Source: an uncultured Oscillospiraceae bacterium (lineage in GTDB: Bacteria > Bacillota > Clostridia > Christensenellales > CAG-138). Taken from it: a DNA stretch of 64,000 bases. A program made the position numbers and the translations under genes. The stretch is taken from positions 1,205 through 65,204 of the forward strand of contig CAYZAW010000005.1 in assembly GCA_964476505.1 (NCBI GenBank), written 5' to 3'. Shown here piece by piece: positions 7,825 to 18,282 of this stretch. The notes below the pieces were generated by a model. The model was not told where the DNA came from and did no database searches. It saw only the letters and a list, made by a program, of their open reading frames with translations. How positions within the stretch are numbered: the stretch's first letter is position 1; each line of letters starts with the position of its first letter.

Positions 7825-9054
7825 TTATGCTTTTGCAGCCGCTGCGGGAATCCGTATCCGCTCGATCACCTTGCGGCAGCGTGCGGTGTTGTACAGCACC
7901 GGCACCGGGTACAGCGGGTTGCACTCCTTTAGGGCAAACCCTATCATCTGCGGAATGTCCGCATCCTTGATGAAATCGAACCCGGTGGGGATGTGCATGC
8001 GGGCGTTCATGGCGCGGATCTCCGCAATGAACGCTTTGGCCTTGGCTTCCTCCCTCGCCGCGCCGGAAAGCCCCGCGATATCGTACAGCCGCGCCAGCTT
8101 CGCATTCACTGTTTCGCCGTAATCCTCCAACACATAGGGAAGTATCACCGCGTTTGCTAAGCCGTGCGGCGTGTTATAAAAGCCTCCAAGCGTGTGCGCG
8201 ATGGTATGCACGTTGCCTACCCCCGCCCGTGTAAACGCCCAGCCCGCTTTATAGGAGGCCAATAACAGCGCCTCCCGCGCCTCCATGTCCGCACCGTTTT
8301 CGTATGCGCGTTCCAAATAGCGGAATATTGCCTGCACCGCTTCCTCGGAAAACGCTCTGGTTTCCTTGGTGGTGTAGTGTACGCATAGGTACGCCTCTAC
8401 CGCGTGTGTAAGCGCGTCCATGCCGGTGGTGGAGGTGATATGCTGCGGCAGCCCCAGCGTTAAGGCGGGGTCCAATACCGCATACTTGGGAATCAACGAA
8501 AGATCGTACAAAGCATATTTGTGATGGGTCTCTTTATCCGTTATGACCGCCGCAATGGTGGTTTCTGAGCCCGTTCCGGCAGTGGTGGGCACCGCAATAA
8601 AGGGCGGCAGCTTATGCAGCACCCTTAAAAGCCCGCCCAACTGCTGAATCGTTTTGTTGGGCTTTACAGCCCGTGCGCCCGCGCCCTTTGCAGTATCCAT
8701 GGCGGAGCCGCCGCCGATGGCAACGATACCGTTACACTGCTCCGTTTTGAACAAGGTATACGCCGCCTCCACCGTTTTGGTGGAGGGATTGGCTTCCACC
8801 TCGCTAAACAAGGCGTAGTCCATACCGCTTTGCTCCAGAAGCGCCAGGATTTTAGGCGCAACGCCTGCCTTCATTAAGCCGGGGTCAGTCACAACAAGGG
8901 CTTTTTGCACGCCCATTCCCTTCAGCAGCGCCGGAATGCGGCTAATACTGTTTTGGCCGGAAACCACCTCTGCCTTTCTCCACGGCAGCAGGTGCGCGCC
9001 AGCGCCAAACACCACTTGGAATATGCGATACCATAGCTTCTTCAAAGCCCACAT
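7825..9054 (-). CDS. Iron-containing (group III) alcohol dehydrogenase
   Basis: 409 aa with a GGAGGT RBS. GGGSAMDTAKG and later His-rich metal-site motifs (HAVEAY, HTIAHTLGG) are typical of Fe-ADH. Confidence 0.85.
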   Translation of the reverse strand: MWALKKLWYRIFQVVFGAGAHLLPWRKAEVVSGQNSISRIPALLKGMGVQKALVVTDPGLMKAGVAPKILALLEQSGMDYALFSEVEANPSTKTVEAAYTLFKTEQCNGIVAIGGGSAMDTAKGAGARAVKPNKTIQQLGGLLRVLHKLPPFIAVPTTAGTGSETTIAAVITDKETHHKYALYDLSLIPKYAVLDPALTLGLPQHITSTTGMDALTHAVEAYLCVHYTTKETRAFSEEAVQAIFRYLERAYENGADMEAREALLLASYKAGWAFTRAGVGNVHTIAHTLGGFYNTPHGLANAVILPYVLEDYGETVNAKLARLYDIAGLSGAAREEAKAKAFIAEIRAMNARMHIPTGFDFIKDADIPQMIGFALKECNPLYPVPVLYNTARCRKVIERIRIPAAAAKA

Positions 9055-9075
9055 AACGCTACCTCCACACTTTAT

Positions 9076-9720
9076 TTATGCCTCCGCCATCCACTCCGTC
9101 AGATGCCGGTAAATCGCCGCCGCCAGCTTTTTATGCTCTGCCTCGTCCATATGCTCCTGATCGATCTCGCTTGGTACGGCATACTCCGACGCAGCCATAA
9201 ACCCGCAGCCGTATTTTTGTGCGACCCGCCGGTACACCTCTTTTAATCCCTTGGCGGTTTCAACGGATTCCGCAGAGAATTCCGGATCGAAGCCCGGCAG
9301 ATGCACCTTCTCCCCAAGGAGAATGGGCGATACAATAAATACCCCCGGCGCATCCCCGTTTGGGCCGCAGTGGGAGCGCTGTATCACTTCTACCAGCCGC
9401 TCCACGCAATACGCGATCTGATCCGCCGAAATGGAGTAGAAGGATTTACAGTCGTTGGTGCCAAGCATCAGTACTACAACATCCACCGGCTTTGTTAGTT
9501 CCAGCGCCGCAGGCAGAGCGGTGATTCCGTTCTTCCCCGCCCGTGTCTCGTCCTCGAACACCGTTGTACGGCCAACGTTGCCGTCCTCGATCACGCGGCA
9601 GCCGCTTCCTAAGTATTGCCCCAAAAGGCACGTCCAGCGCTGTTGTTCGCTATACCTGCCGGAGCCGTCCGGCTTGTAGCCGTAGGTATTGGAATCTCCG
9701 TAACACAATATCGTCTTCAT
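9076..9720 (-). CDS. SGNH/GDSL-family hydrolase (arylesterase/lipase-like)
   Basis: N-terminal MKTILCYGDSNTYGY block I, a GTND block, and a C-terminal D..H region. It lies 21 nt upstream of the ADH gene, so the two are probably an operon. Confidence 0.8.
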   Translation of the reverse strand: MKTILCYGDSNTYGYKPDGSGRYSEQQRWTCLLGQYLGSGCRVIEDGNVGRTTVFEDETRAGKNGITALPAALELTKPVDVVVLMLGTNDCKSFYSISADQIAYCVERLVEVIQRSHCGPNGDAPGVFIVSPILLGEKVHLPGFDPEFSAESVETAKGLKEVYRRVAQKYGCGFMAASEYAVPSEIDQEHMDEAEHKKLAAAIYRHLTEWMAEA

Positions 9721-9843
9721 GTTTTACAGTATATCAAACCATATAAGGTTTTTCATCAGAAACATTTTCTAAATGATTGCATTGATTTATCCATCTATTA
9801 CGAACATTCTTGCCATGATATGATTTTAACGTTCCATTTTTCG

Positions 9844-9871
9844 TTGACTTTTTCCTTTGTTACCGTATAAT
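9844..9871 (+). promoter_or_regulatory. Sigma-70/SigA-type promoter for carA
   Basis: TTGACT (9844-9849), a 16-nt spacer, then TATAAT (9866-9871), about 35 nt upstream of the carA start. Confidence 0.6.
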
Positions 9872-9904
9872 AAGTGAGAAGAAACGAAAAAGCGGGGGTA
9901 TTGT

Positions 9905-10975
9905 ATGAAGAAAGCCGCCATTGTACTGTCCAACGGGTCAGTATTTACCGGTTACCGCATTGGCGCGGATTGTGCCGCCGCCGGGGAATTGGTGTTCACC
10001 ACCGGCATGTGCGGCTATATTGAAACCTTGAGCGACCCCAGCTTTTACGGACAGATCGTATTGCAAACCTTCCCGCTCATCGGTAATTACGGGATGATCC
10101 CGGCGGATATGGAAAGCCCCAATAGCGTTGTTTCCGGGTATGTGGTCCGCGAGTTATGCGGCCAGCCGTCCAATTTTCGCTCAAGCGAAACATTGGACGT
10201 TTTTTTGAAGAAAGCGGGCGTGCCCGGCATCTGCGGTGTGGATACCCGCGCCATTACCCGCATCATACGTGAATACGGCGTTATGAACGCCGCCATTGTA
10301 GACGACGCTTCGCAGGCGGACTTGGAGCACCTAAAAGCAATTCAAGTAAAAAACGCCGTAGCTTCCGTCAGCTGCAAGCAGGCGTACCATTCCCCCGCAA
10401 CAGGGGAGGCGCGCTTTACCGTTGCGCTGTTGGACTTTGGCGCAAAAGCAAATATCGTGCGGGAATTAAACCGCCGCGGCTGCAATGTGCATGTGCTGCC
10501 ATACGATACAACGGCAGAAGAAGTACTGTCTCTTAAGCCGGACGGGCTGATGCTTAGCAACGGTCCCGGCGACCCGGCGGAAAACACGCAGGTCATTCAG
10601 GAGATCAAAAAGCTGTTAGGAAAAGTGCCGATGTTTGGCATCTGCTTAGGGCACCAGCTGTTGGCGCTTGCCAACGGCGCTTCCACCTACAAATTGAAAT
10701 ACGGCCACCGGGGCGCTAACCAGCCGGTAAAGGATCTAACAACAGGTCGGGTATACATCACCAGCCAGAACCACGGCTATGCGGTGGACGGCAGCACGCT
10801 TGCCGCCTCGGGCGGGCAGGTGCGCTTTATAAACGCCAACGATCATACCTGCGAGGGGATCGACTATCCCGCGATCCACGCGTTTTCCGTACAGTATCAC
10901 CCGGAAGCTTGCGCGGGGCCCTTGGACTCCGCTTATCTGTTCGACCGCTTTATCAGCATGATGGAGGTGCGGTAA
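9905..10975 (+). CDS. carA: Carbamoyl-phosphate synthase small (glutamine amidotransferase) subunit
   Basis: 356 aa. GATase triad region GICLGHQLL and ...HPE; N-terminal CPSase small-chain domain. It is directly followed by carB. Confidence 0.95.
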   Translation: MKKAAIVLSNGSVFTGYRIGADCAAAGELVFTTGMCGYIETLSDPSFYGQIVLQTFPLIGNYGMIPADMESPNSVVSGYVVRELCGQPSNFRSSETLDVFLKKAGVPGICGVDTRAITRIIREYGVMNAAIVDDASQADLEHLKAIQVKNAVASVSCKQAYHSPATGEARFTVALLDFGAKANIVRELNRRGCNVHVLPYDTTAEEVLSLKPDGLMLSNGPGDPAENTQVIQEIKKLLGKVPMFGICLGHQLLALANGASTYKLKYGHRGANQPVKDLTTGRVYITSQNHGYAVDGSTLAASGGQVRFINANDHTCEGIDYPAIHAFSVQYHPEACAGPLDSAYLFDRFISMMEVR

Positions 10976-10976
10976 C

Positions 10977-13900
10977 ATGCCTTTAGACGAACGTATCAAA
11001 AAAGTATTGATGATAGGCTCCGGTCCCATCGTGATAGGCCAGGCCGCCGAGTTCGATTATGCGGGCGCACAGGCCTGCCGGGTGTTGAAGGATGCGGGCG
11101 TAAACGTGGTGCTGGTAAACTCCAACCCCGCCACCATCATGACGGACAAATCCCTAGCAGATGAGATCTATTTAGAACCTTTAACGGAGCATACCATCCG
11201 CCGCATCATCGAAAAGGAGCGGCCAGACAGCATACTGGCCTCCCTTGGCGGGCAAACGGGGCTCACCATCGCCATGCAGCTTTCCAAGAGCGGATATTTA
11301 GAGAAAATGGGCGTGCGGCTTTTGGGTACCGATGCCGCGGCCATAGATGCTGCCGAAGACAGGCAGCTTTTTAAAGACACTATGGAGCGCATCGGTCAGC
11401 CGGTGATTCCCTCCGCCATTGCAAACGATGTTGTGCACGCTAAGGAGATCGCAAAGGAAATCGGTTACCCGGTGATCATCCGCCCGGCGTTTACCCTTGG
11501 CGGTGCGGGCGGCGGCGTAGCCTATGATGAAGCGGCGCTTGTGAATATCGCACAAAACGGCTTGGATATGTCTCCCATCACGCAGGTACTGGTGGAGCGT
11601 TATATTTTCGGCTGGAAAGAGATCGAATTTGAAGTGATGCGGGATGCGGCGGATAACGTGATCGCCGTGTGCAGCATGGAGAATTTCGACCCTGTTGGCG
11701 TACACACGGGAGACAGCATCGTCATTGCACCTGCGGTAACGCTATCCGATAAAGAATATCAAATGCTTCGAAGCGCGTCGTTGTCCATCATTTCCGCGCT
11801 GGGCATCCAAGGCGGCTGCAACTGCCAGTTCGCCTTGAACCCCGATAGCTTTGAATACGCGGTGATCGAGGTAAACCCCCGCGTTTCCCGCTCCTCCGCG
11901 CTTGCCAGCAAGGCCACCGGCTACCCCATTGCCAAGGTGACCACAAAAATTGCGCTTGGCTACACGCTGGACGAAATAGAAAACGCCGTTACAGGCAAAA
12001 CCTGCGCCTGCTTTGAGCCTACGCTGGATTACGTGGTGGTAAAGCTGCCCCGCTGGCCCTTTGATAAATTCGTACACGCTTCCCGTGCGCTTGGCACGCA
12101 GATGAAGGCCACCGGCGAGGTGATGGCGATTGCCCCGTCCTTTGAGATGGCTCTGTTAAAGGCCGTGCGCGGTGCGGAAATATCGCTGGACACCCTGAAT
12201 CTAAAAGCCCTTGCCGGCTGCGATTACCGGGAAAAGCTGAAGCAGGCAGACGATTTGCGCCTGTTTACGCTGTTTTATGCCCTCAAGCAGGGCGCAACAG
12301 TAGACGAATTGTTCCAACAAACGCGTATCGACCGTTGGTTCTTATATAAATTAGCACATTTGGCGCAATATGAAACCGCCATAACAAATCGTGTGCTGAC
12401 CGAAGAGCAGTATGCAGAGGGCAAGCGCTTAGGCTACACGGATAAGGCTTTGGAGCGTATCAGTAACAATCCCCTTCCCCTCCACCGCGCACCTGTATAC
12501 AAAATGGTGGATACCTGCGGCGCGGAGTTTGCCGCCCAAACGCCCTATTTTTACGCCACCTATGACGACGAGTGCGAGTCTCGCCCCATCGACCGCAGCA
12601 AGAAGGAGCGCATCATCGTGCTGGGCTCGGGGCCTATTCGCATAGGCCAAGGCATTGAGTTCGACTATTCCTCCGTGCATTGCGCCCGCACCCTGCAGGA
12701 GCTGGGCTACGATGTGATTATCGTAAACAACAACCCGGAAACCGTTTCCACGGACTTTGACACCTCCAACCGCCTGTACTTTGAGCCGCTCTGTGAGGAG
12801 GACGTAAAAAGCATCGTTGCCATAGAGCAGCCCATCGGCGTGGTGGTGGCGTTTGGCGGGCAAACCGCCATAAAGCTCACGAAATCGCTCCATGAAGCGG
12901 GCATTCAAATTTTAGGCACCTCGGCGGAAAGCATCGATATGGCGGAGGATCGGGAACGGTTCGACGCGTTACTGGAAAAATTTCACATCCGCCGCCCCAA
13001 GGGCATGGGCGTGGTCACCAAGGAGGAAGCCATCCATGCGGCAAATACGCTGGGTTTCCCCGTGCTGGTACGGCCTTCCTACGTGATTGGCGGGCAGAAC
13101 ATGACCATTGCCTATACGCCGGAGGATGTTGCGCAGTATATGGACTTGATACTGGCGCAAAACATCGAAAACCCCGTGCTGGTGGATCAATACCTGATGG
13201 GCATGGAGCTGGAGGTAGACGTGATTTCCGACGGCGTAGACGTGCTGATTCCCGGCATTATGGAGCATATCGAGCGGGCGGGCGTGCACTCCGGAGACTC
13301 CATTGCCATGTATCCGCCGCAAAACATTACAGATGCCATGCACGACATCATTGTGGACTGCTCCACCAAGCTGGCGCTTGCCATGGGCACCAAGGGGCTC
13401 ATCAATATTCAATACTTGGTGTATGAGGATGAACTGTATGTGATCGAAGTAAACCCGCGAGCGTCCCGCACCATCCCCTATATCAGCAAGGTAACGGGCG
13501 TGCCTATGGTGGCATTGGCAACCAAGATCATGGTAGGCGCAAAGCTGCGGGAGCTGGGCTACGGCACGGGCTTATACCGCACACCGCCGTATATCGCGGT
13601 GAAGGTGCCCGTATTTTCCTTCGAAAAGCTTTCTGACGCAAACTCAGAATTAGGGCCGGAAATGAAATCCACCGGCGAGGTATTGGGCGTTGGTAAAACC
13701 CGGGAGGAAGCCCTGTTCAAAGGACTGCTGGCGGCGGGCTACCGCCTGCCCCGTTCGGTTTACGAGCGCAAGGGCGGGGTGCTTATCAGCGTAACCAAAA
13801 AAAGCAGGTTGGAGATCATCCGCTTGGCAAAAAAGCTGAACGATCTTGGCCTTACGATCTACGCCACCCCCGGCACGGCGGACTCCATTTCCCAGCTTGG

Positions 13901-15014
13901 CATCGACGTGCGCCGGGTAAACCGGCTGTCGGAAGACAATAGCATATTCGACGTACTGGAGTCGGGTGCGATCAACTACATCGTGTTTACCGGCGCTTCC
14001 AAAAAAAGCACCATACAGGACTACACCCGCCTGCACCGCCGCGCCTTACAGCTTGGCGTTGCCTGCTTTACCTCGCTGGATACGGCAAACGCGCTGGCCG
14101 ACATCATTCAAAGCGGCTTCAACGAGGGCAATACGGAGCTCATCGATATCTGCCATATGCGCAAGGAGCGCCAGCGTATTTCCTTCCGCAAAATGCAGGG
14201 CGCAGGCAACGACTGCATCGTGCTGGACAACCGAAACGGCTCCATCACCTGCCCGGAATCCCTTGCGATACTGTTTTGCAACCGGCATTCCGGTATCGGC
14301 TCCGAGGGCGTTGTGTTGATTGAGCGCTCGGACTGCGCCGATGCAAAAATGCGCATGTTCAATCAGGACGGCAGCGAGGGCGGCATGGGCGGCAACAGCA
14401 TCCGTTGCGTGGCGAAGTACCTGTTTGACAACGGCATTGTGGATGGCGACCACCTGACGGTGGAAACCAATAGCGGCATTAAGGAGCTGGACATCAAGCT
14501 GTACGACGGCAAGGTACGCTCGGTGCGGGTAAACATCGGCAAGCCCCGCTTTGCCCCGGCAAGCATCCCCACCACCCTTCCAGGAGAGCGTATACAAAAC
14601 TATCCCCTGACTGTTGCCGGGCAGGAATTCCATATCAACTGCGTATCCTTCGGAAACCCGCACTGCGTGGTGTTCTGCGAACGAATCGACACGCTGGACT
14701 TGGCGTATATCGGCCCGCAGTTTGAAAACGACCTCTCGCTGTTCCCGGAGCGCATCAATACGGAATTTGTGCGGGTGGTCAACCGCAAGACCCTTCGCAT
14801 GCGCGCATGGGAGCGCGGCAACGGCGAAACATGGGCCTGCGGCACGGGCGCTTGTGCTTCCGTTGTAGCGGCGGTGGAAAACGGCTTGTGCGACCGCGAT
14901 ACGGATATCACCGTAAAAATGGTTGGCGGGGATTTGACCGTCCGCTACACAAACGAGGCCGTGTATTTAACCGGCAATACCAGCCTGATATTCGAAGGGG
15001 TCATTGAGTATTAA
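10977..15014 (+). CDS. carB: Carbamoyl-phosphate synthase large subunit, fused in frame to a C-terminal diaminopimelate-epimerase-like (DapF) domain
   Basis: 1345 aa, versus about 1070 for typical CarB. Residues 1 to about 1065 contain two ATP-grasp halves and an MGS-like tail (...TSLDTANALADII). From about nt 14178 the sequence ISFRKMQGAGNDCIVLD ... GGNSIRC ... SFGNPHCVVF ... ERGNGETWACGTGACA is colinear with full-length DapF. No stop or frameshift occurs at the junction. Confidence 0.85.
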   Translation: MPLDERIKKVLMIGSGPIVIGQAAEFDYAGAQACRVLKDAGVNVVLVNSNPATIMTDKSLADEIYLEPLTEHTIRRIIEKERPDSILASLGGQTGLTIAMQLSKSGYLEKMGVRLLGTDAAAIDAAEDRQLFKDTMERIGQPVIPSAIANDVVHAKEIAKEIGYPVIIRPAFTLGGAGGGVAYDEAALVNIAQNGLDMSPITQVLVERYIFGWKEIEFEVMRDAADNVIAVCSMENFDPVGVHTGDSIVIAPAVTLSDKEYQMLRSASLSIISALGIQGGCNCQFALNPDSFEYAVIEVNPRVSRSSALASKATGYPIAKVTTKIALGYTLDEIENAVTGKTCACFEPTLDYVVVKLPRWPFDKFVHASRALGTQMKATGEVMAIAPSFEMALLKAVRGAEISLDTLNLKALAGCDYREKLKQADDLRLFTLFYALKQGATVDELFQQTRIDRWFLYKLAHLAQYETAITNRVLTEEQYAEGKRLGYTDKALERISNNPLPLHRAPVYKMVDTCGAEFAAQTPYFYATYDDECESRPIDRSKKERIIVLGSGPIRIGQGIEFDYSSVHCARTLQELGYDVIIVNNNPETVSTDFDTSNRLYFEPLCEEDVKSIVAIEQPIGVVVAFGGQTAIKLTKSLHEAGIQILGTSAESIDMAEDRERFDALLEKFHIRRPKGMGVVTKEEAIHAANTLGFPVLVRPSYVIGGQNMTIAYTPEDVAQYMDLILAQNIENPVLVDQYLMGMELEVDVISDGVDVLIPGIMEHIERAGVHSGDSIAMYPPQNITDAMHDIIVDCSTKLALAMGTKGLINIQYLVYEDELYVIEVNPRASRTIPYISKVTGVPMVALATKIMVGAKLRELGYGTGLYRTPPYIAVKVPVFSFEKLSDANSELGPEMKSTGEVLGVGKTREEALFKGLLAAGYRLPRSVYERKGGVLISVTKKSRLEIIRLAKKLNDLGLTIYATPGTADSISQLGIDVRRVNRLSEDNSIFDVLESGAINYIVFTGASKKSTIQDYTRLHRRALQLGVACFTSLDTANALADIIQSGFNEGNTELIDICHMRKERQRISFRKMQGAGNDCIVLDNRNGSITCPESLAILFCNRHSGIGSEGVVLIERSDCADAKMRMFNQDGSEGGMGGNSIRCVAKYLFDNGIVDGDHLTVETNSGIKELDIKLYDGKVRSVRVNIGKPRFAPASIPTTLPGERIQNYPLTVAGQEFHINCVSFGNPHCVVFCERIDTLDLAYIGPQFENDLSLFPERINTEFVRVVNRKTLRMRAWERGNGETWACGTGACASVVAAVENGLCDRDTDITVKMVGGDLTVRYTNEAVYLTGNTSLIFEGVIEY

Positions 15015-15022
15015 AGGCGGTT

Positions 15023-15694
15023 CTAGAATTGCAGTTCATGGGCATGCGCGTTTAGCCATGCCCGTTTTTCTTTATAATCCGGTATCACAGTTTGTACGCT
15101 TGCCCAAAATTCACTTTGATGGTTGGGCGCTTTGATATGGCAAAGCTCATGCACCGCTACATAATCGATGATATCCGCAGGCGCCATAATGAGCCGCCAT
15201 GTAAGGTTGATGTTTCCGCTGCGGCTGCAGGAGCCCCAGCGGCCATCGGCGGAGGACAGCTTAACGCTGCGGTAGGTAACGCCGCATAGCGGCGCGTACA
15301 GGTTCAGCCGTTCCGTAAAGAATTCCCGGGCAAGGGCTTTGTACCAGCGCTCCAGCATTGCCTTAACGCGTTCCGGCTCCGCCTGCGGTATCAGCAGCCG
15401 GTCTTCCTCCCAAAGCGGCTTTTTGATGCCGCCGCAGTATGTTAAATACAGCGGTTCTCCAAGCAGGAAAAACCGCTCCCCCTCAAGAAACCTGTGAGGC
15501 GGATAAACTTGGGCTTTTGTTTCCATTTCCGCTGATTTTTGCTTGATCCAAGCCGCTTTATCCATTACCACGGCATCAATATACGCCTTGGGGGTACGAA
15601 GCGGAGCGCGCACCTCCACGCCGCCGTCTGGCAGGATGCGGATGGCAATGGTTTTTCGGCGGCTTCGAATCAATGCATAACGTTGTAATTCCAT
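15023..15694 (-). CDS. YgjP-like M48-family metallopeptidase (DUF45)
   Basis: ORF 15023..15736; likely start is MELQRYALIRSRRKTIAIRI at 15694. It carries the HELCHIKAPNH zinc motif. Confidence 0.75.
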   Translation of the reverse strand: MELQRYALIRSRRKTIAIRILPDGGVEVRAPLRTPKAYIDAVVMDKAAWIKQKSAEMETKAQVYPPHRFLEGERFFLLGEPLYLTYCGGIKKPLWEEDRLLIPQAEPERVKAMLERWYKALAREFFTERLNLYAPLCGVTYRSVKLSSADGRWGSCSRSGNINLTWRLIMAPADIIDYVAVHELCHIKAPNHQSEFWASVQTVIPDYKEKRAWLNAHAHELQF

Positions 15695-15876
15695 AGTGGC
15701 AGTATAGCACGGATCGCAGGCGGTTTCTACGCGCATTCAACGTGTTTCGCCGCTACTTTCCTAATTTTTATCAAATCCGACTTCCATTTTTTGTAGACGC
15801 GGCGCTTGATTTATGCCATAATTTTGTGTGTATCAATATCATATCAAGGCAGCAATGCCGTCAAGGAGAACAACCA

Positions 15877-18282
15877 TTGAGATTGCTTGAGCCGCTTGCG
15901 CTATCCTGCATGAAGCAGTTTCAAACTGATTTTTATGAGCAGCGGAACGTTCAAAAGGTGATTCCGTTGCTGCATCCCGATGTTATCTGGGTATTCAGCA
16001 AAGACCTGACTCTGCACGGCAGCAATGATGTAGCGCGCTTTTTAGAAAGCCGCGCCGCAACCATGCAGGAGTCTTTTACGGTATACCAAACCGCATATAC
16101 CGCCACACAGCTTAGCGATACGGACTGCCAAATTTCCGGCAGCATGACGCTTGTCTACGCTGCCGCAGATTCCTCGGTGGTAACGCCCTTTTCTGTAAGC
16201 GCTCTGTTCCGGCAAACCGGCGATAGCATGCTTTTAGTTTACATGCATGTGTTTACACAAGAACCCCATACAGACGAAGCCCCATTGCAGGAGGCTTCTT
16301 TGCGTTCCGTTGTCAGCAAGCGGGCAGCGGACGTTCGCAAGCTGCGGCGCACTGCCCTGCTCTCTGACGAAGCGGAGTATCATGAAATACTGATGAACAT
16401 GCCCGGCGGGTTGTTCACCTATTCCGCCGAGGAAGACGCGCAGTTCGATTTTATCAATCAAGCCGTTCTGGATATTTTCGGATACACCGAGGAGGAATTC
16501 CGAAAGGTCTACAATAACAAGTTCGATAACATCATCCACCCGGAGGATCGGGACTGGGTGCTGGCCTCCATCAACGAACAAATTCAAGACAGCCCCTACG
16601 ACGAGGTGCGTTACCGCATCATCGACTCCTCCGGCTCCGTGCGGTATGTGCACGATGTAGGCCGCATCATTACAGACGCAAGCGGCAGACGCATGTTCTT
16701 TGTTGTGGTGATAGACATTACCCAGTATGTACTCTCCGAGCGGGCGCTGGCAACCAGCGAAAAGCGGATGCGCGCGATCGTGGAACAATCCAGCGACATC
16801 ATATTTGAGTACGACATCGAAACCGATCACGCCACATTCCACAGCGATTTTGAGCATATATTCGGTCGTATGCCCATCACGGATAACGTGAAAAAGCAGC
16901 TTGTGGCTTCCGACAGCATCGTTCACCCGGATGATATCCCCGCCATTGCCGCGTTTTTTACCAAGCTGCATTCCGGCGACCCCTATGTTGAAACGGAGCT
17001 GCGCATCCATACAGGCGACGGCGCATATCTGTGGTGCCGCGTATCCGCCTCCATCGTGTATGACGACTTTGGCCGTCCCTTTGTAGCCATGGGCAAGATC
17101 GCAGACATCGACAAGCAAAAACGCGAAACGGAAACACTGAAAACCAAAGCCAATACCGACCCCATGACGGGGCTGTACAACAAAACCGTTTCCGCCCAGA
17201 TGCTTTCCGAGTTTATTGCCGGAGAGGGCAAAAAGGGCTGCCACGCCATGTTCATGATAGACGTGGACGACTTTAAATCCGTTAACGACCATCACGGTCA
17301 CTTGTTTGGTGATTCCGTGTTGATCGCCGTGGCGGGCGTTCTTTCCAGAAGCTTCCGCTCCTCGGACATCGTTGGGCGCATCGGCGGAGACGAATTCATG
17401 GCGCTGCAAAAGTATGTAAGCTCCATGGCACAGTTGGAAAAGCGCGCAGAATCCATCCTGCACGCAGTTGGCGCTCTGTTTCCGGAGCTGGAGCAGCCCA
17501 TTCACTGCACCATCGGCATCGCGCTGTACCCCGAACACGGGCAGGATTTGCCCATGCTGTATCACAATGCGGATATCGCCCTGTATCACGCCAAAAACGA
17601 GGGCAAAGCCCGCTACTGTATCTATAACGCCGAGCTTGGCCGCGCCTTTACGGAAAACGATACCCCCATCCCCGTTCACGCGGAGATCGAAGTAGCGGAG
17701 AAAAACCCCGTTGGCAGGCAGTTGATTCAAAACGTGCTGCAAACGCTCATGGAGAAAAAGGATATCCAGCAGGCATTGCAAACCGTTACGGAGCTGTTGG
17801 GAACATATTTTCAGGTGAGCCGCTGTTACTTATATGAGCTCTGTGTTGACAGCGCAACATTAAGCAACCTGTATCAATGGTACGCGGCGGGCGTGGAAAT
17901 CAGCGATCACACCTTAGAAGGCTATACCATTGGAGATTTAAACAGCTACGCCGCCAATTTTGATGAGGACGGGTTCTTCTGCTGTCGCGACGTTCGCACG
18001 TTGCCCGAAAATTATGCCCGTTACAAGGAATCCCTTGGCATGCAATCCATGCTTCAATGCTTGATTCGCAATCACGAAAAGCTTTACGGCTTCCTTGGCT
18101 TTGACCAGCGCAGCGGCTCCCGGCTCTGGACGCAGGAGGATCTGATCGTGGTGCGGTATATTTGCGAAATTCTTGGGGTATTTATTCCCAAGCAGCAAAC
18201 GCCGGAGCAGCTGGATGCTGCCTCCGCGCAGCTGGAAGCCATGATGGCACACCTCAAGCATTTTTCAAAACCGCAGTCGTAA
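15877..18282 (+). CDS. Diguanylate cyclase with an NTF2-like N-terminal domain, two PAS domains, GGDEF and a C-terminal GAF
   Basis: ORF 15742..18282. The best start is TTG 15877, 8 nt after AAGGAG; ATG 15910 is the alternative. Motifs DPMTGLYNK...GRIGGDEFMAL are present, with a GAF-like C-terminus. Confidence 0.8.
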   Translation: MRLLEPLALSCMKQFQTDFYEQRNVQKVIPLLHPDVIWVFSKDLTLHGSNDVARFLESRAATMQESFTVYQTAYTATQLSDTDCQISGSMTLVYAAADSSVVTPFSVSALFRQTGDSMLLVYMHVFTQEPHTDEAPLQEASLRSVVSKRAADVRKLRRTALLSDEAEYHEILMNMPGGLFTYSAEEDAQFDFINQAVLDIFGYTEEEFRKVYNNKFDNIIHPEDRDWVLASINEQIQDSPYDEVRYRIIDSSGSVRYVHDVGRIITDASGRRMFFVVVIDITQYVLSERALATSEKRMRAIVEQSSDIIFEYDIETDHATFHSDFEHIFGRMPITDNVKKQLVASDSIVHPDDIPAIAAFFTKLHSGDPYVETELRIHTGDGAYLWCRVSASIVYDDFGRPFVAMGKIADIDKQKRETETLKTKANTDPMTGLYNKTVSAQMLSEFIAGEGKKGCHAMFMIDVDDFKSVNDHHGHLFGDSVLIAVAGVLSRSFRSSDIVGRIGGDEFMALQKYVSSMAQLEKRAESILHAVGALFPELEQPIHCTIGIALYPEHGQDLPMLYHNADIALYHAKNEGKARYCIYNAELGRAFTENDTPIPVHAEIEVAEKNPVGRQLIQNVLQTLMEKKDIQQALQTVTELLGTYFQVSRCYLYELCVDSATLSNLYQWYAAGVEISDHTLEGYTIGDLNSYAANFDEDGFFCCRDVRTLPENYARYKESLGMQSMLQCLIRNHEKLYGFLGFDQRSGSRLWTQEDLIVVRYICEILGVFIPKQQTPEQLDAASAQLEAMMAHLKHFSKPQS

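What the first reader, a model, noticed from the sequence alone, without database searches (positions are those of the whole stretch)
14178..15014. CarB is fused in frame to a full-length DapF-like domain whose first catalytic cysteine is glycine
The carB ORF continues without a stop from the MGS-like allosteric tail (...GNTELIDICHM) into about 278 residues colinear with diaminopimelate epimerase: FRKMQGAGND..., SFGNPHCVVF, ERGNGETWACGTGACA.

In E. coli and B. subtilis DapF (from memory) the first catalytic thiol lies in ...(Q/N)CGNG(A/L)RC.... Here the aligned segment is SEGGMGGNSIRC, with GGC at 14388-14390 where TGC is expected. The second catalytic Cys (TGC at 14838-14840, in ACGTG) is retained.

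Two-base epimerases that lose one Cys are known in the related proline-racemase family to become dehydratases or other enzymes. The domain may therefore be a pseudo-enzyme, a regulatory module on CPSase, or a one-base enzyme with new chemistry. I know of no described CarB-DapF fusion, but I cannot search for one.
Basis: partly seen in the sequence, partly recalled or inferred. Interest (0 to 1): 0.6.

Follow-up and report, generated by a model that had tools for sequence, protein, structure and literature searches.

The report
CarB fused to retired DapF domain
This bacterium's only carbamoyl-phosphate synthetase large subunit carries, fused to its tail, a strongly conserved diaminopimelate-epimerase domain that has lost one of its two catalytic cysteines; a separate normal epimerase does that job, so the fused domain probably now serves the synthetase as a ligand-binding or structural part.

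Summary
ORF 10977-15014 encodes a complete CarB (residues 1-1046), a roughly 20-residue linker, and a full DapF domain (1068-1345). There is no stop or frameshift. Contigs from three independent metagenome studies match it exactly, and a metatranscriptome contig spans the junction. The first catalytic Cys column is Gly1138 (GGC 14388-14390); the second Cys (1288) is kept.

The fusion is not unique. It occurs in 72 of 301 sampled genomes of the order and in thousands of protein clusters.

- **Where the fused domain is the only DapF (30 genomes):** 25 keep both Cys. At least 23 of those encode DapL, often just downstream.
- **Where a stand-alone DapF also exists (41 genomes):** 36 have lost a Cys, mostly to Ala, Gly or Ser. 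All 40 stand-alone copies checked keep both.
- **Exceptions:** four of the five use Ddh, which bypasses DapF.

This genome has DapL plus a canonical stand-alone dapF.

The one-Cys domain is not decaying. dN/dS is about 0.06, its rate relative to CarB equals that of the two-Cys clade, and 38 of 43 DapF-invariant columns are retained.

Best reading: a retired epimerase kept as a ligand-binding or structural module of CPSase. I found no published description, and the function is untested.

The parts
9844..9871 (+). Promoter-like site (TTGACT-16-TATAAT, 11 of 12) upstream of carA
   Evidence: Consensus scan only. The region holds no Rfam leader element.
9905..10975 (+). carA, the CPSase small (glutaminase) subunit; it ends 1 nt before carB
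   Evidence: Pfam CPSase_sm_chain 160 bits and GATase 166 bits; ORF.
10977..15014 (+). Single ORF, 1345 aa: carB fused in frame to a DapF-derived domain. It is the only carB in the genome.
   Evidence: tblastn of the CarB part finds one locus in G000. The junction is identical in three independent assemblies.
10977..14114 (+). Complete CarB part (residues 1-1046): two ATP-grasp halves, oligomerisation domain and MGS-like allosteric domain
   Evidence: NF003671 1432 bits (cut-off 599) over model positions 1-1048 of 1058; TIGR01369 1397 bits; Pfam D1, D2, D3 and MGS.
14115..14177 (+). Linker (residues 1047-1067, ...GFNEGNTELIDICHMRKERQR)
   Evidence: It lies between the CarB and DapF model matches. 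AlphaFold pLDDT is 53-57 over residues about 1045-1064, with confident domains on both sides. I saw no well-spaced ribosome-binding site before the internal ATGs at 14157 and 14193 (read).
14178..15011 (+). DapF-derived domain (residues 1068-1345), clade II of the fusion family
   Evidence: TIGR00652 256-261 bits. Phmmer E 4e-64 to 2otn. The model superposes on ligand-bound DapF 9mro with target TM 0.91 and rmsd 1.7 A. It sits in a 26-row Ala/Gly clade with 98% support.
14388..14390 (+). GGC = Gly1138, in the column of the first catalytic Cys (Cys73 of H. influenzae / E. coli DapF)
   Evidence: This column is Cys in 71 of 71 working DapFs sampled and Ala, Gly or Ser in 135 of 135 clade II sequences.
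14838..14840 (+). TGC = Cys1288, the retained second catalytic Cys (Cys217 equivalent) in ACGTGACA
   Evidence: It is Cys in 114 of 115 close homologues.
14214..14216 (+). TGC = Cys1080 in GNDC, where working DapFs have Tyr or Phe (71 of 71)
   Evidence: This is a second departure next to the Asn11-equivalent motif.
14304..14306 (+). GAG = Glu1110 in GIGSEG, where working DapFs have Asp (71 of 71)
   Evidence: This column is relaxed across clade II (Asp in only 56%).

Best explanation
Shown:
- The gene encodes the genome's only CPSase large subunit, fused through a short flexible linker to a complete DapF fold.
- It belongs to an old fusion family of Clostridia.
- In one branch of that family the fused domain keeps both catalytic cysteines and is the only DapF in the genome. 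Those genomes encode DapL, often immediately downstream, so the domain there is almost certainly the working diaminopimelate (DAP) epimerase.
- The window's gene belongs to another branch (clade II), in which the first thiol is always Ala or Gly. Nearly every sampled genome of this branch, including this one, has a separate two-cysteine dapF.
- The clade II domain is under strong purifying selection and keeps the second thiol and the polar pocket residues that I recall (from the literature, not checked here) as holding the far end of DAP. The few relaxed columns lie at or next to Cys73 and in two N-terminal motifs.

Inferred:
- The domain is a retired epimerase. It can no longer carry out the two-base proton swap at a useful rate.
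- It is kept because CPSase now depends on it. The most likely role is a clamshell module that still closes on DAP or a close analogue and passes that signal, or its dimer contact, to the adjacent allosteric domain of CarB.
- A purely structural role is the next most likely.

Neither ligand binding nor any effect on CPSase has been tested.
For: 1. Architecture and reality of the gene.

2. Family-wide cysteine loss: the Cys73 column is Ala (94) or Gly (27) in the 121 sequences tallied (120 homologues plus this ORF), while Cys217 is kept.

3. Genome survey (301 genomes of the order, 72 with the fusion):
 - Fused domain is the sole DapF match: 25 with both Cys, 5 degenerate.
 - Fused domain plus a stand-alone DapF: 5 with both Cys, 36 degenerate.
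 - Raw Fisher odds ratio 36, p = 1e-9.
 - All 40 stand-alone copies checked have both Cys.
 - Four of the five exceptions encode Ddh (394-457 bits) and lack DapL, so they need no epimerase.
 - 23 of the 25 two-Cys sole-DapF genomes encode DapL, and in about 15 it lies within 5 kb downstream on the same strand. The same holds in named Ruminococcus loci.

4. This genome has DapL (595 bits), no Ddh, and a canonical stand-alone dapF (279.7 bits, EMCGNG and ACGTG).

5. Selective constraint on the one-Cys domain:
 - The ratio of DapF-part to CarB-part divergence is 1.33 in clade II against 1.32 in the two-Cys clade.
 - The fused domain has diverged less than the stand-alone DapF across the same genome pairs (0.44 against 0.56).
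 - dN/dS is 0.06-0.07 where dS is unsaturated.
 - 38 of 43 columns that are at least 97% conserved in working DapFs stay at least 90% conserved. The five relaxed ones are Cys73, its neighbour, two positions in the KMxGxGND motif, and the Asp of GIGxDG.

6. Structure: both domains are confident (mean pLDDT 89). The DapF part matches ligand-bound DapF (target TM 0.91), and the linker is low-confidence.

7. Precedent for a non-catalytic role of the DapF fold: E. coli DapF binds and activates RppH whether it is a dimer or the inactive monomeric Y268A mutant. The C73A/C217A double mutant shows no detectable epimerase activity (PMC6061791).
Against: - No biochemical data exist for any member.
- The association with a second DapF rests on only about six independent losses on the tree. 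Phylogenetically independent contrasts are too few for significance.
- The near-invariance of Cys1288 and of the whole ACGTGACA motif is more than a passive binding module obviously needs. It would also fit residual or new catalysis.
- AlphaFold gives no confident fixed interface between the allosteric domain and the DapF domain (pTM 0.71, linker pLDDT about 55). A signal path is therefore not supported structurally.
- One genome (G294, Ser at the Cys73 column) has DapL, no Ddh and no second DapF, which hints that a Ser variant may still work. That genome is 91% complete.
- There is no evident metabolic reason why CPSase should sense DAP.
- The rate comparison used the 120 sequences most similar to the query, which biases it towards conserved members. 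avoids that bias, but the stand-alone DapFs there are not all orthologous.
Confidence: 0.55

Rival explanations
1. The domain is a purely structural or assembly element. After the fusion, CPSase folding or oligomerisation came to depend on the DapF domain, for example through the DapF dimer contact. The domain therefore cannot be lost even though it binds nothing useful and catalyses nothing.
For: - DapF is a tight dimer through a C-terminal Tyr (PMC6061791). The equivalent column is Tyr or Phe in nearly all sequences sampled, in every group.
- In one lineage (family code f8, genus g21) the pocket itself erodes: Gly-Asn becomes Ala-Asn, Arg becomes Lys, Asn becomes Tyr, and there are deletions. 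That domain evolves 1.38 times faster than the stand-alone DapF, yet the reading frame stays open.
Against: Outside that lineage the polar pocket residues (Asn1129, Asn1140, Asn1227, Asn1261, Glu1279, Arg1280, Cys1288, Gly1289, Thr1290) are kept in 110-115 of 115 close homologues, at a dN/dS of about 0.06. A scaffold role alone does not explain this. No rigid interface to CarB is predicted.
Confidence: 0.2
2. The domain is a new one-base enzyme. Using only the Cys217-equivalent thiol, it catalyses a different reaction on DAP or an analogue, such as stereospecific alpha-proton exchange, an elimination, or another isomerisation. This would parallel one-Cys members of the proline-racemase superfamily.
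For: - The second thiol and its helix motif are nearly invariant.
- Only small residues (Ala, Gly, Ser) replace Cys73, which leaves room for water.
- Several residues are conserved specifically in clade II: Asn1085, Cys1092, Glu1116, Arg1266, Asn1269, Asn1282.
- One-thiol relatives with new chemistry exist, and 3-hydroxyproline dehydratases appear among the fold matches.
Against: - The DAP pocket is otherwise unchanged, and DAP has no beta leaving group.
- The Pro_racemase model scores below its cut-off (19.8 against 27 bits).
- Other lineages lost the other cysteine instead (Cys217 to Ser or Tyr in G045, G246 and G103). That looks like loss of function rather than a directed change.
- No partner genes in the window suggest a new pathway.
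Confidence: 0.15
3. The domain is still a working, if slower, DAP epimerase. Water or another residue replaces the missing thiol, giving the cell a second, CPSase-linked source of meso-DAP.
For: - Strong purifying selection and an intact pocket.
- One DapL-dependent genome with Ser at the Cys73 column has no other DapF match (G294).
- E. coli lacking dapF still grows (PMC13759103), so low epimerase activity can suffice.
Against: - The thiol column is Cys in 71 of 71 DapFs that must work, and in every stand-alone copy checked.
- Cysteine loss is found almost only where a second DapF or Ddh makes the activity unnecessary: 40 of 41 cases.
- Gly or Ala cannot act as a general acid or base.
- The columns next to Cys73 are relaxed too.
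Confidence: 0.08
4. The fusion is a sequencing or assembly artefact, or two separately translated proteins (carB with a missed stop, dapF with its own start).
For: An ATG (14157) lies in the linker just before the DapF domain.
Against: - The sequence is identical in three independent assemblies, and a transcript contig crosses the junction.
- Thousands of homologues have the same continuous frame.
- There is no stop in frame.
- I saw no well-spaced ribosome-binding site before either internal ATG (read), and no promoter-like site lies within the fused ORF.
Confidence: 0.02

Closest known systems
Canonical diaminopimelate epimerase DapF (TIGR00652 / PF01678; solved structures 2otn, 9mro, 3ejx, 1gqz, 4ijz)
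   Same: Full-length two-lobe fold, 34-41% identity to solved DapFs, and model target TM 0.84-0.91. It keeps the second catalytic Cys, the GNPH, NxEF, ERG and CGTG motifs, and the aromatic residue at the dimer contact.
   Different: The first catalytic Cys is Gly. Tyr/Phe becomes Cys in the GND(Y/F) motif, and Asp becomes Glu in GIGxDG. The domain is covalently attached to CarB. It is not the genome's only DapF; a canonical copy shares just 39% identity with it.
Two-cysteine CarB-DapF fusions of Clostridia (clade I; e.g. Saccharofermentans sp., Ruminococcus sp., Ruminococcaceae bacterium AM07-15); annotated only as 'carbamoyl-phosphate synthase large subunit'
   Same: Same architecture, same short linker, and one group on the tree (support 85, not starred). 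The rate of the DapF part relative to the CarB part is the same.
   Different: Clade I keeps both thiols, is usually the sole DapF of a DapL-route genome, and often lies just upstream of dapL. The window's clade II has Ala or Gly at Cys73, coexists with a stand-alone dapF, and has lost the linkage to dapL.
Bacterial CarAB carbamoyl-phosphate synthetase (E. coli CarB; NF003671, TIGR01369)
   Same: A complete large subunit with an adjacent carA. All domains are present, including the MGS-like allosteric domain.
   Different: About 300 extra C-terminal residues hang directly on the allosteric domain. Known CPSase effectors (UMP, IMP, ornithine; from established knowledge) bind within that allosteric domain, and no DapF-type module is described.
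E. coli DapF as a non-catalytic activator of RppH (PMC6061791)
   Same: The DapF fold serves another enzyme by protein contact: the monomeric Y268A mutant, which has no detectable epimerase activity, stimulates RppH as well as the wild type does.
   Different: That DapF is a free, fully active enzyme that moonlights. Here the domain is fused and has lost a catalytic residue, and the partner would be CPSase.
One-cysteine members of the proline-racemase / DapF-fold superfamily (trans-3-hydroxy-L-proline dehydratase, e.g. 6r76, 4k7g; PhzF)
   Same: The same pseudo-symmetric fold, with one of the two general-base positions replaced.
   Different: Identity is only 10-16%, and the Pro_racemase and PhzF models score below cut-off. 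Those enzymes have remodelled pockets and substrates with a leaving group, whereas here the DAP pocket is unchanged.

Membership tests
DapF, diaminopimelate epimerase (TIGR00652 / PF01678) | Sequence match above the curated cut-off over the full model | tested here: met
   TIGR00652 scores 256-261 bits against a cut-off of 114.65, over model positions 1-268 of 270. PF01678 scores 176-182 bits in two stretches.
DapF, diaminopimelate epimerase (TIGR00652 / PF01678) | Two-lobe DapF fold | tested here: met
   AlphaFold model with mean pLDDT 89. Foldseek target TM is 0.91 with rmsd 1.7 A to 9mro, and 0.84-0.89 to 2otn, 3ejx and 1gqz.
DapF, diaminopimelate epimerase (TIGR00652 / PF01678) | First catalytic thiol (Cys73) | tested here: not met
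   Gly1138 in alignments to four solved DapFs (no gap near the motif) and in multiple alignments. The column is Cys in 71 of 71 working DapFs sampled.
DapF, diaminopimelate epimerase (TIGR00652 / PF01678) | Second catalytic thiol (Cys217) in the CGTG motif | tested here: met
   Cys1288 in ACGTGACA.
DapF, diaminopimelate epimerase (TIGR00652 / PF01678) | Conserved substrate-pocket residues (Asn of GND, Asn of FNxDG, Gly-Asn after Cys73, Asn of GNPH, Asn of NxEF, Glu-Arg of ERG, Gly-Thr after Cys217). Their roles are taken from the literature from memory. | tested here: met
   All are present in the window's sequence. Across clade II, 38 of 43 near-invariant DapF columns are retained. Own departures are Cys1080 and Glu1110.
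DapF, diaminopimelate epimerase (TIGR00652 / PF01678) | LL-DAP to meso-DAP epimerase activity | not testable with these tools
   Indirect evidence only. Cysteine loss occurs almost only where a second DapF or Ddh exists. An E. coli C73A/C217A double mutant is inactive (PMC6061791). No single-mutant data were read here.
CarB, carbamoyl-phosphate synthase large subunit (NF003671 / TIGR01369) | Full-length match with both ATP-grasp halves, the oligomerisation domain and the MGS-like allosteric domain | tested here: met
   NF003671 scores 1432 bits (cut-off 599) and TIGR01369 1397 bits (cut-off 1027). Pfam finds D1 x2, D2 x2, D3 and MGS.
CarB, carbamoyl-phosphate synthase large subunit (NF003671 / TIGR01369) | Adjacent carA partner, and sole copy in the genome | tested here: met
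   carA lies at 9905-10975 and ends 1 nt before carB. tblastn finds a single carB locus in the 92%-complete genome.
CarB-DapF fusion family, Cys73-less clade II | CarB plus DapF in one frame, Ala or Gly at the Cys73 column, and placement inside the clade on a tree | tested here: met
   The window's domain lies in a 26-row set (20 Ala, 4 Gly, 2 Ser/Ser) with 98% SH-aLRT support. Its closest 120 homologues are all Ala or Gly.
Proline-racemase-like one-Cys enzymes (PF05544) / PhzF (PF02567) | Sequence match above the curated cut-off | tested here: not met
   PF05544 scores 19.8 bits and PF02567 scores 19.3 bits, both against a cut-off of 27. Structural matches show only 10-16% identity.

The most novel reading that the evidence does not exclude
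The Cys73-less DapF module is a built-in diaminopimelate sensor of carbamoyl-phosphate synthetase. Its clamshell would close on LL- or meso-DAP, held by the intact distal pocket and the remaining thiol. Through the short linker or its dimer contact, it would alter the neighbouring allosteric domain. This would tie supply of the pyrimidine and arginine precursor to the peptidoglycan and lysine precursor pool. It would be a new allosteric input to a textbook enzyme, created by retiring a fused enzyme.
Probability: 0.25. Interest if true: 0.75.

Novelty: new variant of a known kind. Interest (0 to 1): 0.55.

Why it matters
CPSase is a central, heavily studied allosteric enzyme, and DapF is an antibacterial target with a textbook two-thiol mechanism. 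Here a large group of gut, rumen and digester Clostridia carries the two as one protein.

The family appears to record the whole path from working fused enzyme, through a redundant copy, to a one-thiol domain that is still strongly selected. That makes it a clean natural system for asking how a pseudoenzyme domain is retained and what it does for its host enzyme.

There is also a practical point for annotation. These proteins are labelled only 'carbamoyl-phosphate synthase large subunit', so pathway tools may miss the real DapF in two-Cys genomes. They may also wrongly credit DapF activity to the one-Cys ones.

Tried and rejected
- **Assembly error or missed stop:** rejected. Three independent assemblies are identical, and a transcript contig spans the junction.
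- **Separate translation of the DapF part:** I saw no well-spaced ribosome-binding site before the ATGs at 14157 or 14193, and there is no internal promoter or terminator at the junction.
- **RNA leader or riboswitch upstream of carA:** no Rfam match in 9000-16000, even at E = 1.
- **Catalytic Cys offset by an indel:** rejected. The alignments have no gap near the motif, and the column is consistent in every multiple alignment.
- **Phylogenetically corrected test of 'Cys loss goes with a second DapF':** attempted with independent pairs. Only 3-6 usable pairs exist, so no significance is possible. The direction is right.
- **Possible in-frame TGA (selenocysteine?) in a relative's stand-alone dapF (G012):** it is simply the stop codon at the end of the match.
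- **First frame-picking script:** it chose long antisense open frames in GC-rich genomes and gave nonsense residues. It was redone by alignment score.
- **Literature:** three full-text searches or reads found no description of a CarB-DapF fusion.
- **Fixed domain interface:** the AlphaFold model of residues 935-1345 gave two confident domains but a low-confidence linker and pTM 0.71, so no interface can be claimed.
Full report
**1. The observation**

The window has one uninterrupted ORF at 10977..15014 (+), 1345 aa.
- NCBIfam places a complete CarB on residues 1-1046: NF003671 at 1432 bits (cut-off 599) and TIGR01369 at 1397 bits.
- It places a complete DapF on residues 1068-1343: TIGR00652 at 256 bits (cut-off 114.65).
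- Pfam agrees, finding CPSase_L_D1/D2/D3, MGS and DAP_epimerase.

Phmmer alignments to solved DapFs (2otn, 9mro, 3ejx, 5ha4) have no gap near the first catalytic motif. They put Gly1138 (GGC 14388-14390) opposite the first catalytic cysteine. Cys1288 (TGC 14838-14840) lies opposite the second.

The junction is not an assembly error. Contigs from three unrelated studies (anaerobic digester, bioreactor, wastewater) match 13900-14500 with no difference and no gap. One metatranscriptome contig (13939-14189) crosses the junction, and another covers the GGC codon.

**2. Surroundings**

- carA (9905-10975) ends one base before carB. A good sigma-70-like site lies at 9844-9871.
- The flanks are unrelated: a Fe-ADH and a GDSL hydrolase upstream on the other strand, a convergent YgjP-like metallopeptidase, and a PAS-GGDEF-GAF protein downstream.
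- There is no Rfam element.
- The fused gene is the only carB in the 92%-complete genome. It must therefore supply carbamoyl phosphate for all needs.
- The genome also has a canonical stand-alone dapF on another contig: 279 aa, 279.7 bits, with EMCGNG and ACGTG, and 39% identical to the fused domain.
- It has a DapL aminotransferase (595 bits) and no Ddh. It therefore runs the DapL route, which needs an epimerase, and it has an ordinary one.

**3. The fusion is a large family**

A search with the DapF region, restricted to proteins of CarB-plus size, gave 5705 hits. The best 120 carry the same CarB-plus-DapF domains. Nearly all are about 1335-1350 aa and a few are cut short. They come from Oscillospiraceae, Ruminococcaceae, Acutalibacteraceae, Peptococcaceae and unnamed Clostridia. 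Where they are named at all, the name is 'carbamoyl-phosphate synthase large subunit'.

In the 121 sequences tallied (those 120 plus this ORF), the first-Cys column is Ala (94) or Gly (27), and the second Cys is kept in all but one.

Named relatives:
- Ala or Gly type: Ca. Alloscillospira gallinarum, Ca. Gallimonas intestinalis, Christensenella.
- Two-Cys type: Saccharofermentans, Ruminococcus spp., Ruminococcaceae bacterium AM07-15.

**4. Genome-level test**

I searched 301 genomes of the window's order with TIGR00652. I then fetched every fused DapF domain (72 genomes) and 40 stand-alone copies.

| Situation | Both Cys kept | A Cys lost |
|---|---|---|
| Fused domain is the only DapF match (30 genomes) | 25 | 5 |
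| A stand-alone DapF is also present (41 countable genomes, this one among them) | 5 | 36 |

- The losses are mostly at the Cys73 column, to Ala, Gly or Ser.
- Every one of the 40 stand-alone copies has both cysteines.
- The raw association is strong: odds ratio 36, p = 1e-9.
- Four of the five exceptions (G096, G045, G246, G103) encode meso-DAP dehydrogenase (394-457 bits) and lack DapL. They need no epimerase.
- The fifth (G294) has Ser at the thiol column, DapL and no Ddh. Either a gene is missing from a 91%-complete genome, or the Ser variant retains enough activity.
- Conversely, 23 of the 25 two-Cys sole-DapF genomes encode DapL. In about 15 of them it lies within 5 kb downstream on the same strand, and in two it is only about 350 nt away.
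- The same adjacency appears in named Ruminococcus loci and next to many stand-alone dapF genes. It appears next to no Ala/Gly-type fusion.

This suggests that the fusion arose when carB read through into the dapF of a dapF-dapL unit. It also suggests that the two-Cys form is a real bifunctional enzyme.

**5. How many losses**

- On a maximum-likelihood tree of 112 domains, the fused domains form essentially one group (support 85).
- The window's domain sits in a 26-row Ala/Gly clade (98%). A separate Ser/Ala clade has 99% support.
- At least four further scattered losses occur, some at Cys217 instead.
- The minimum is six changes of state.
- With so few events, independent-pair tests cannot reach significance, though the direction is consistent. 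The association is therefore suggestive, not proven.

**6. The one-Cys domain is not decaying**

- The ratio of DapF-part to CarB-part divergence is 1.33 in the Ala/Gly clade and 1.32 in the two-Cys clade.
- That clade II sample is biased towards sequences like the query. In the unbiased genome sample, the fused domain has diverged less than the working stand-alone DapF of the same genome pairs: 0.44 against 0.56.
- Where synonymous sites are not saturated, dN/dS is 0.06-0.07, against 0.10-0.19 for the stand-alone gene.
- Of 43 columns at least 97% conserved in 71 working DapFs, 38 stay at least 90% conserved in 135 clade II sequences.
- The five that relax are Cys73 itself, its neighbour Met, Gly and Asn in KMxGxGND, and the Asp of GIGxDG. 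They all lie in the N-terminal part of the domain, at or before Cys73.
- The window's own sequence shares this pattern (Glu1110) and adds Cys1080 for the invariant Tyr/Phe.
- The Cys217 half (Asn of GNPH, Asn of NxEF, Glu-Arg, Cys-Gly-Thr) is nearly invariant: 110-115 of 115 close homologues.
- One lineage (f8/g21) is the exception. There the pocket erodes, deletions appear, and the domain evolves 1.38 times faster than the stand-alone DapF, yet the frame stays open.

**7. Structure**

An AlphaFold model of residues 935-1345 has mean pLDDT 89.2. It shows two confident domains joined by a low-confidence stretch (about residues 1045-1064). At pTM 0.71, no fixed orientation can be claimed. The DapF part superposes best on ligand-bound, closed DapFs: 9mro with target TM 0.91 and rmsd 1.7 A, and 3ejx with 0.87-0.89.

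**8. Interpretation**

Shown:
- A real, transcribed, conserved CarB-DapF fusion.
- A clade-wide loss of one thiol.
- A canonical DapF elsewhere in the genome.
- Strong purifying selection with an intact distal pocket and second thiol.

Inferred:
- The domain no longer works as the cell's epimerase. The evidence is that loss appears almost only where the activity is dispensable, and that Gly or Ala cannot act as a base.
- It is kept for a role in CPSase, most likely one that still needs the pocket.

I rank the readings as follows.

| Reading | Confidence |
|---|---|
| Retired epimerase kept as a ligand-binding or otherwise selected accessory module of CPSase | about 0.55 |
| — of which a true DAP sensor | about 0.25 |
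| Structural or assembly role only | about 0.2 |
| New one-base enzyme | about 0.15 |
| Residual epimerase | about 0.08 |
| Artefact or separate translation | about 0.02 |

E. coli DapF activating RppH, with its inactive monomeric Y268A mutant doing so equally well, is a precedent for the fold acting as a protein partner (PMC6061791).

**9. Comparison and novelty**

As a DapF the domain passes the sequence, fold, pocket and second-thiol tests and fails the first-thiol test. It should therefore not be annotated as a diaminopimelate epimerase. As a CarB the protein passes every test.

I found no paper describing the fusion. Earlier notes of this scan describe the same fusion in other genomes and reach similar readings.

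New here:
- the order-wide count linking Cys loss to a second DapF or Ddh;
- the dapL adjacency of the two-Cys form;
- the constraint measurements.

It is a new variant of known kinds, a pseudoenzyme domain on CPSase. It is of moderate to good interest, and its function is still to be tested at the bench.

Noticed in passing
G242:C3:46212-47387 and G149:C11:34133-35308 (dapL) next to the fused genes at G242:C3:47732-51900 and G149:C11:35655-39800; also L146, L148, L151: In two-cysteine fusions, dapL lies directly downstream of carB::dapF, about 350 nt away in two genomes and within 5 kb in about 15 of 23. This suggests the fusion arose by read-through of carB into a dapF-dapL unit. No Ala/Gly-type fusion showed this.
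   Followed up: partly
L064-L072 (fused domains of family code f8, genus g21: G070, G151, G274, G289, G229, G042, G007, G116): In this lineage the fused domain is eroding further. Gly-Asn becomes Ala-Asn, CGTG becomes CGTA, there are deletions down to 257 aa, and TIGR00652 scores only 164-225 bits. It evolves 1.38 times faster than the stand-alone DapF, yet the frame stays open. This may be a later stage of the same process.
   Followed up: partly
G187:C14:36655-37487 (L073): The DapF part of this relative's fused gene is split over two frames, with 5 stops in the best single-frame translation. The genome has a stand-alone dapF. This is either a pseudogenised fusion or an assembly error.
   Followed up: no
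G294:C31:9180-9998 (L029): This fused domain has Ser at the Cys73 column and is the only DapF match in a genome that has DapL and no Ddh. Either a DapF gene is missing from the 91%-complete genome, or a Ser variant still epimerises.
   Followed up: partly
G024, G279, G281, G215, G266, G159, G295, G191, G206, G175 (family codes f24, f29, f9): These genomes carry two stand-alone DapF-family genes and no fusion. The second copy scores lower (217-243 bits). I did not check whether it keeps both cysteines or what it does.
   Followed up: no
window 13939-14189 and 14310-14460: Metatranscriptome contigs (run X18) match these stretches exactly, so the gene is expressed in at least one environmental sample. 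The organism recurs in anaerobic digester, bioreactor, wastewater and landfill metagenomes.
   Followed up: partly
window 16234-17781 (-), and 11298-14663 (-): Long antisense open frames (up to 515 aa) lie opposite the GGDEF gene and opposite carB. They have no family support and are probably a by-product of GC-rich coding sequence. The same effect misled my first frame-picking script on relatives.
   Followed up: no
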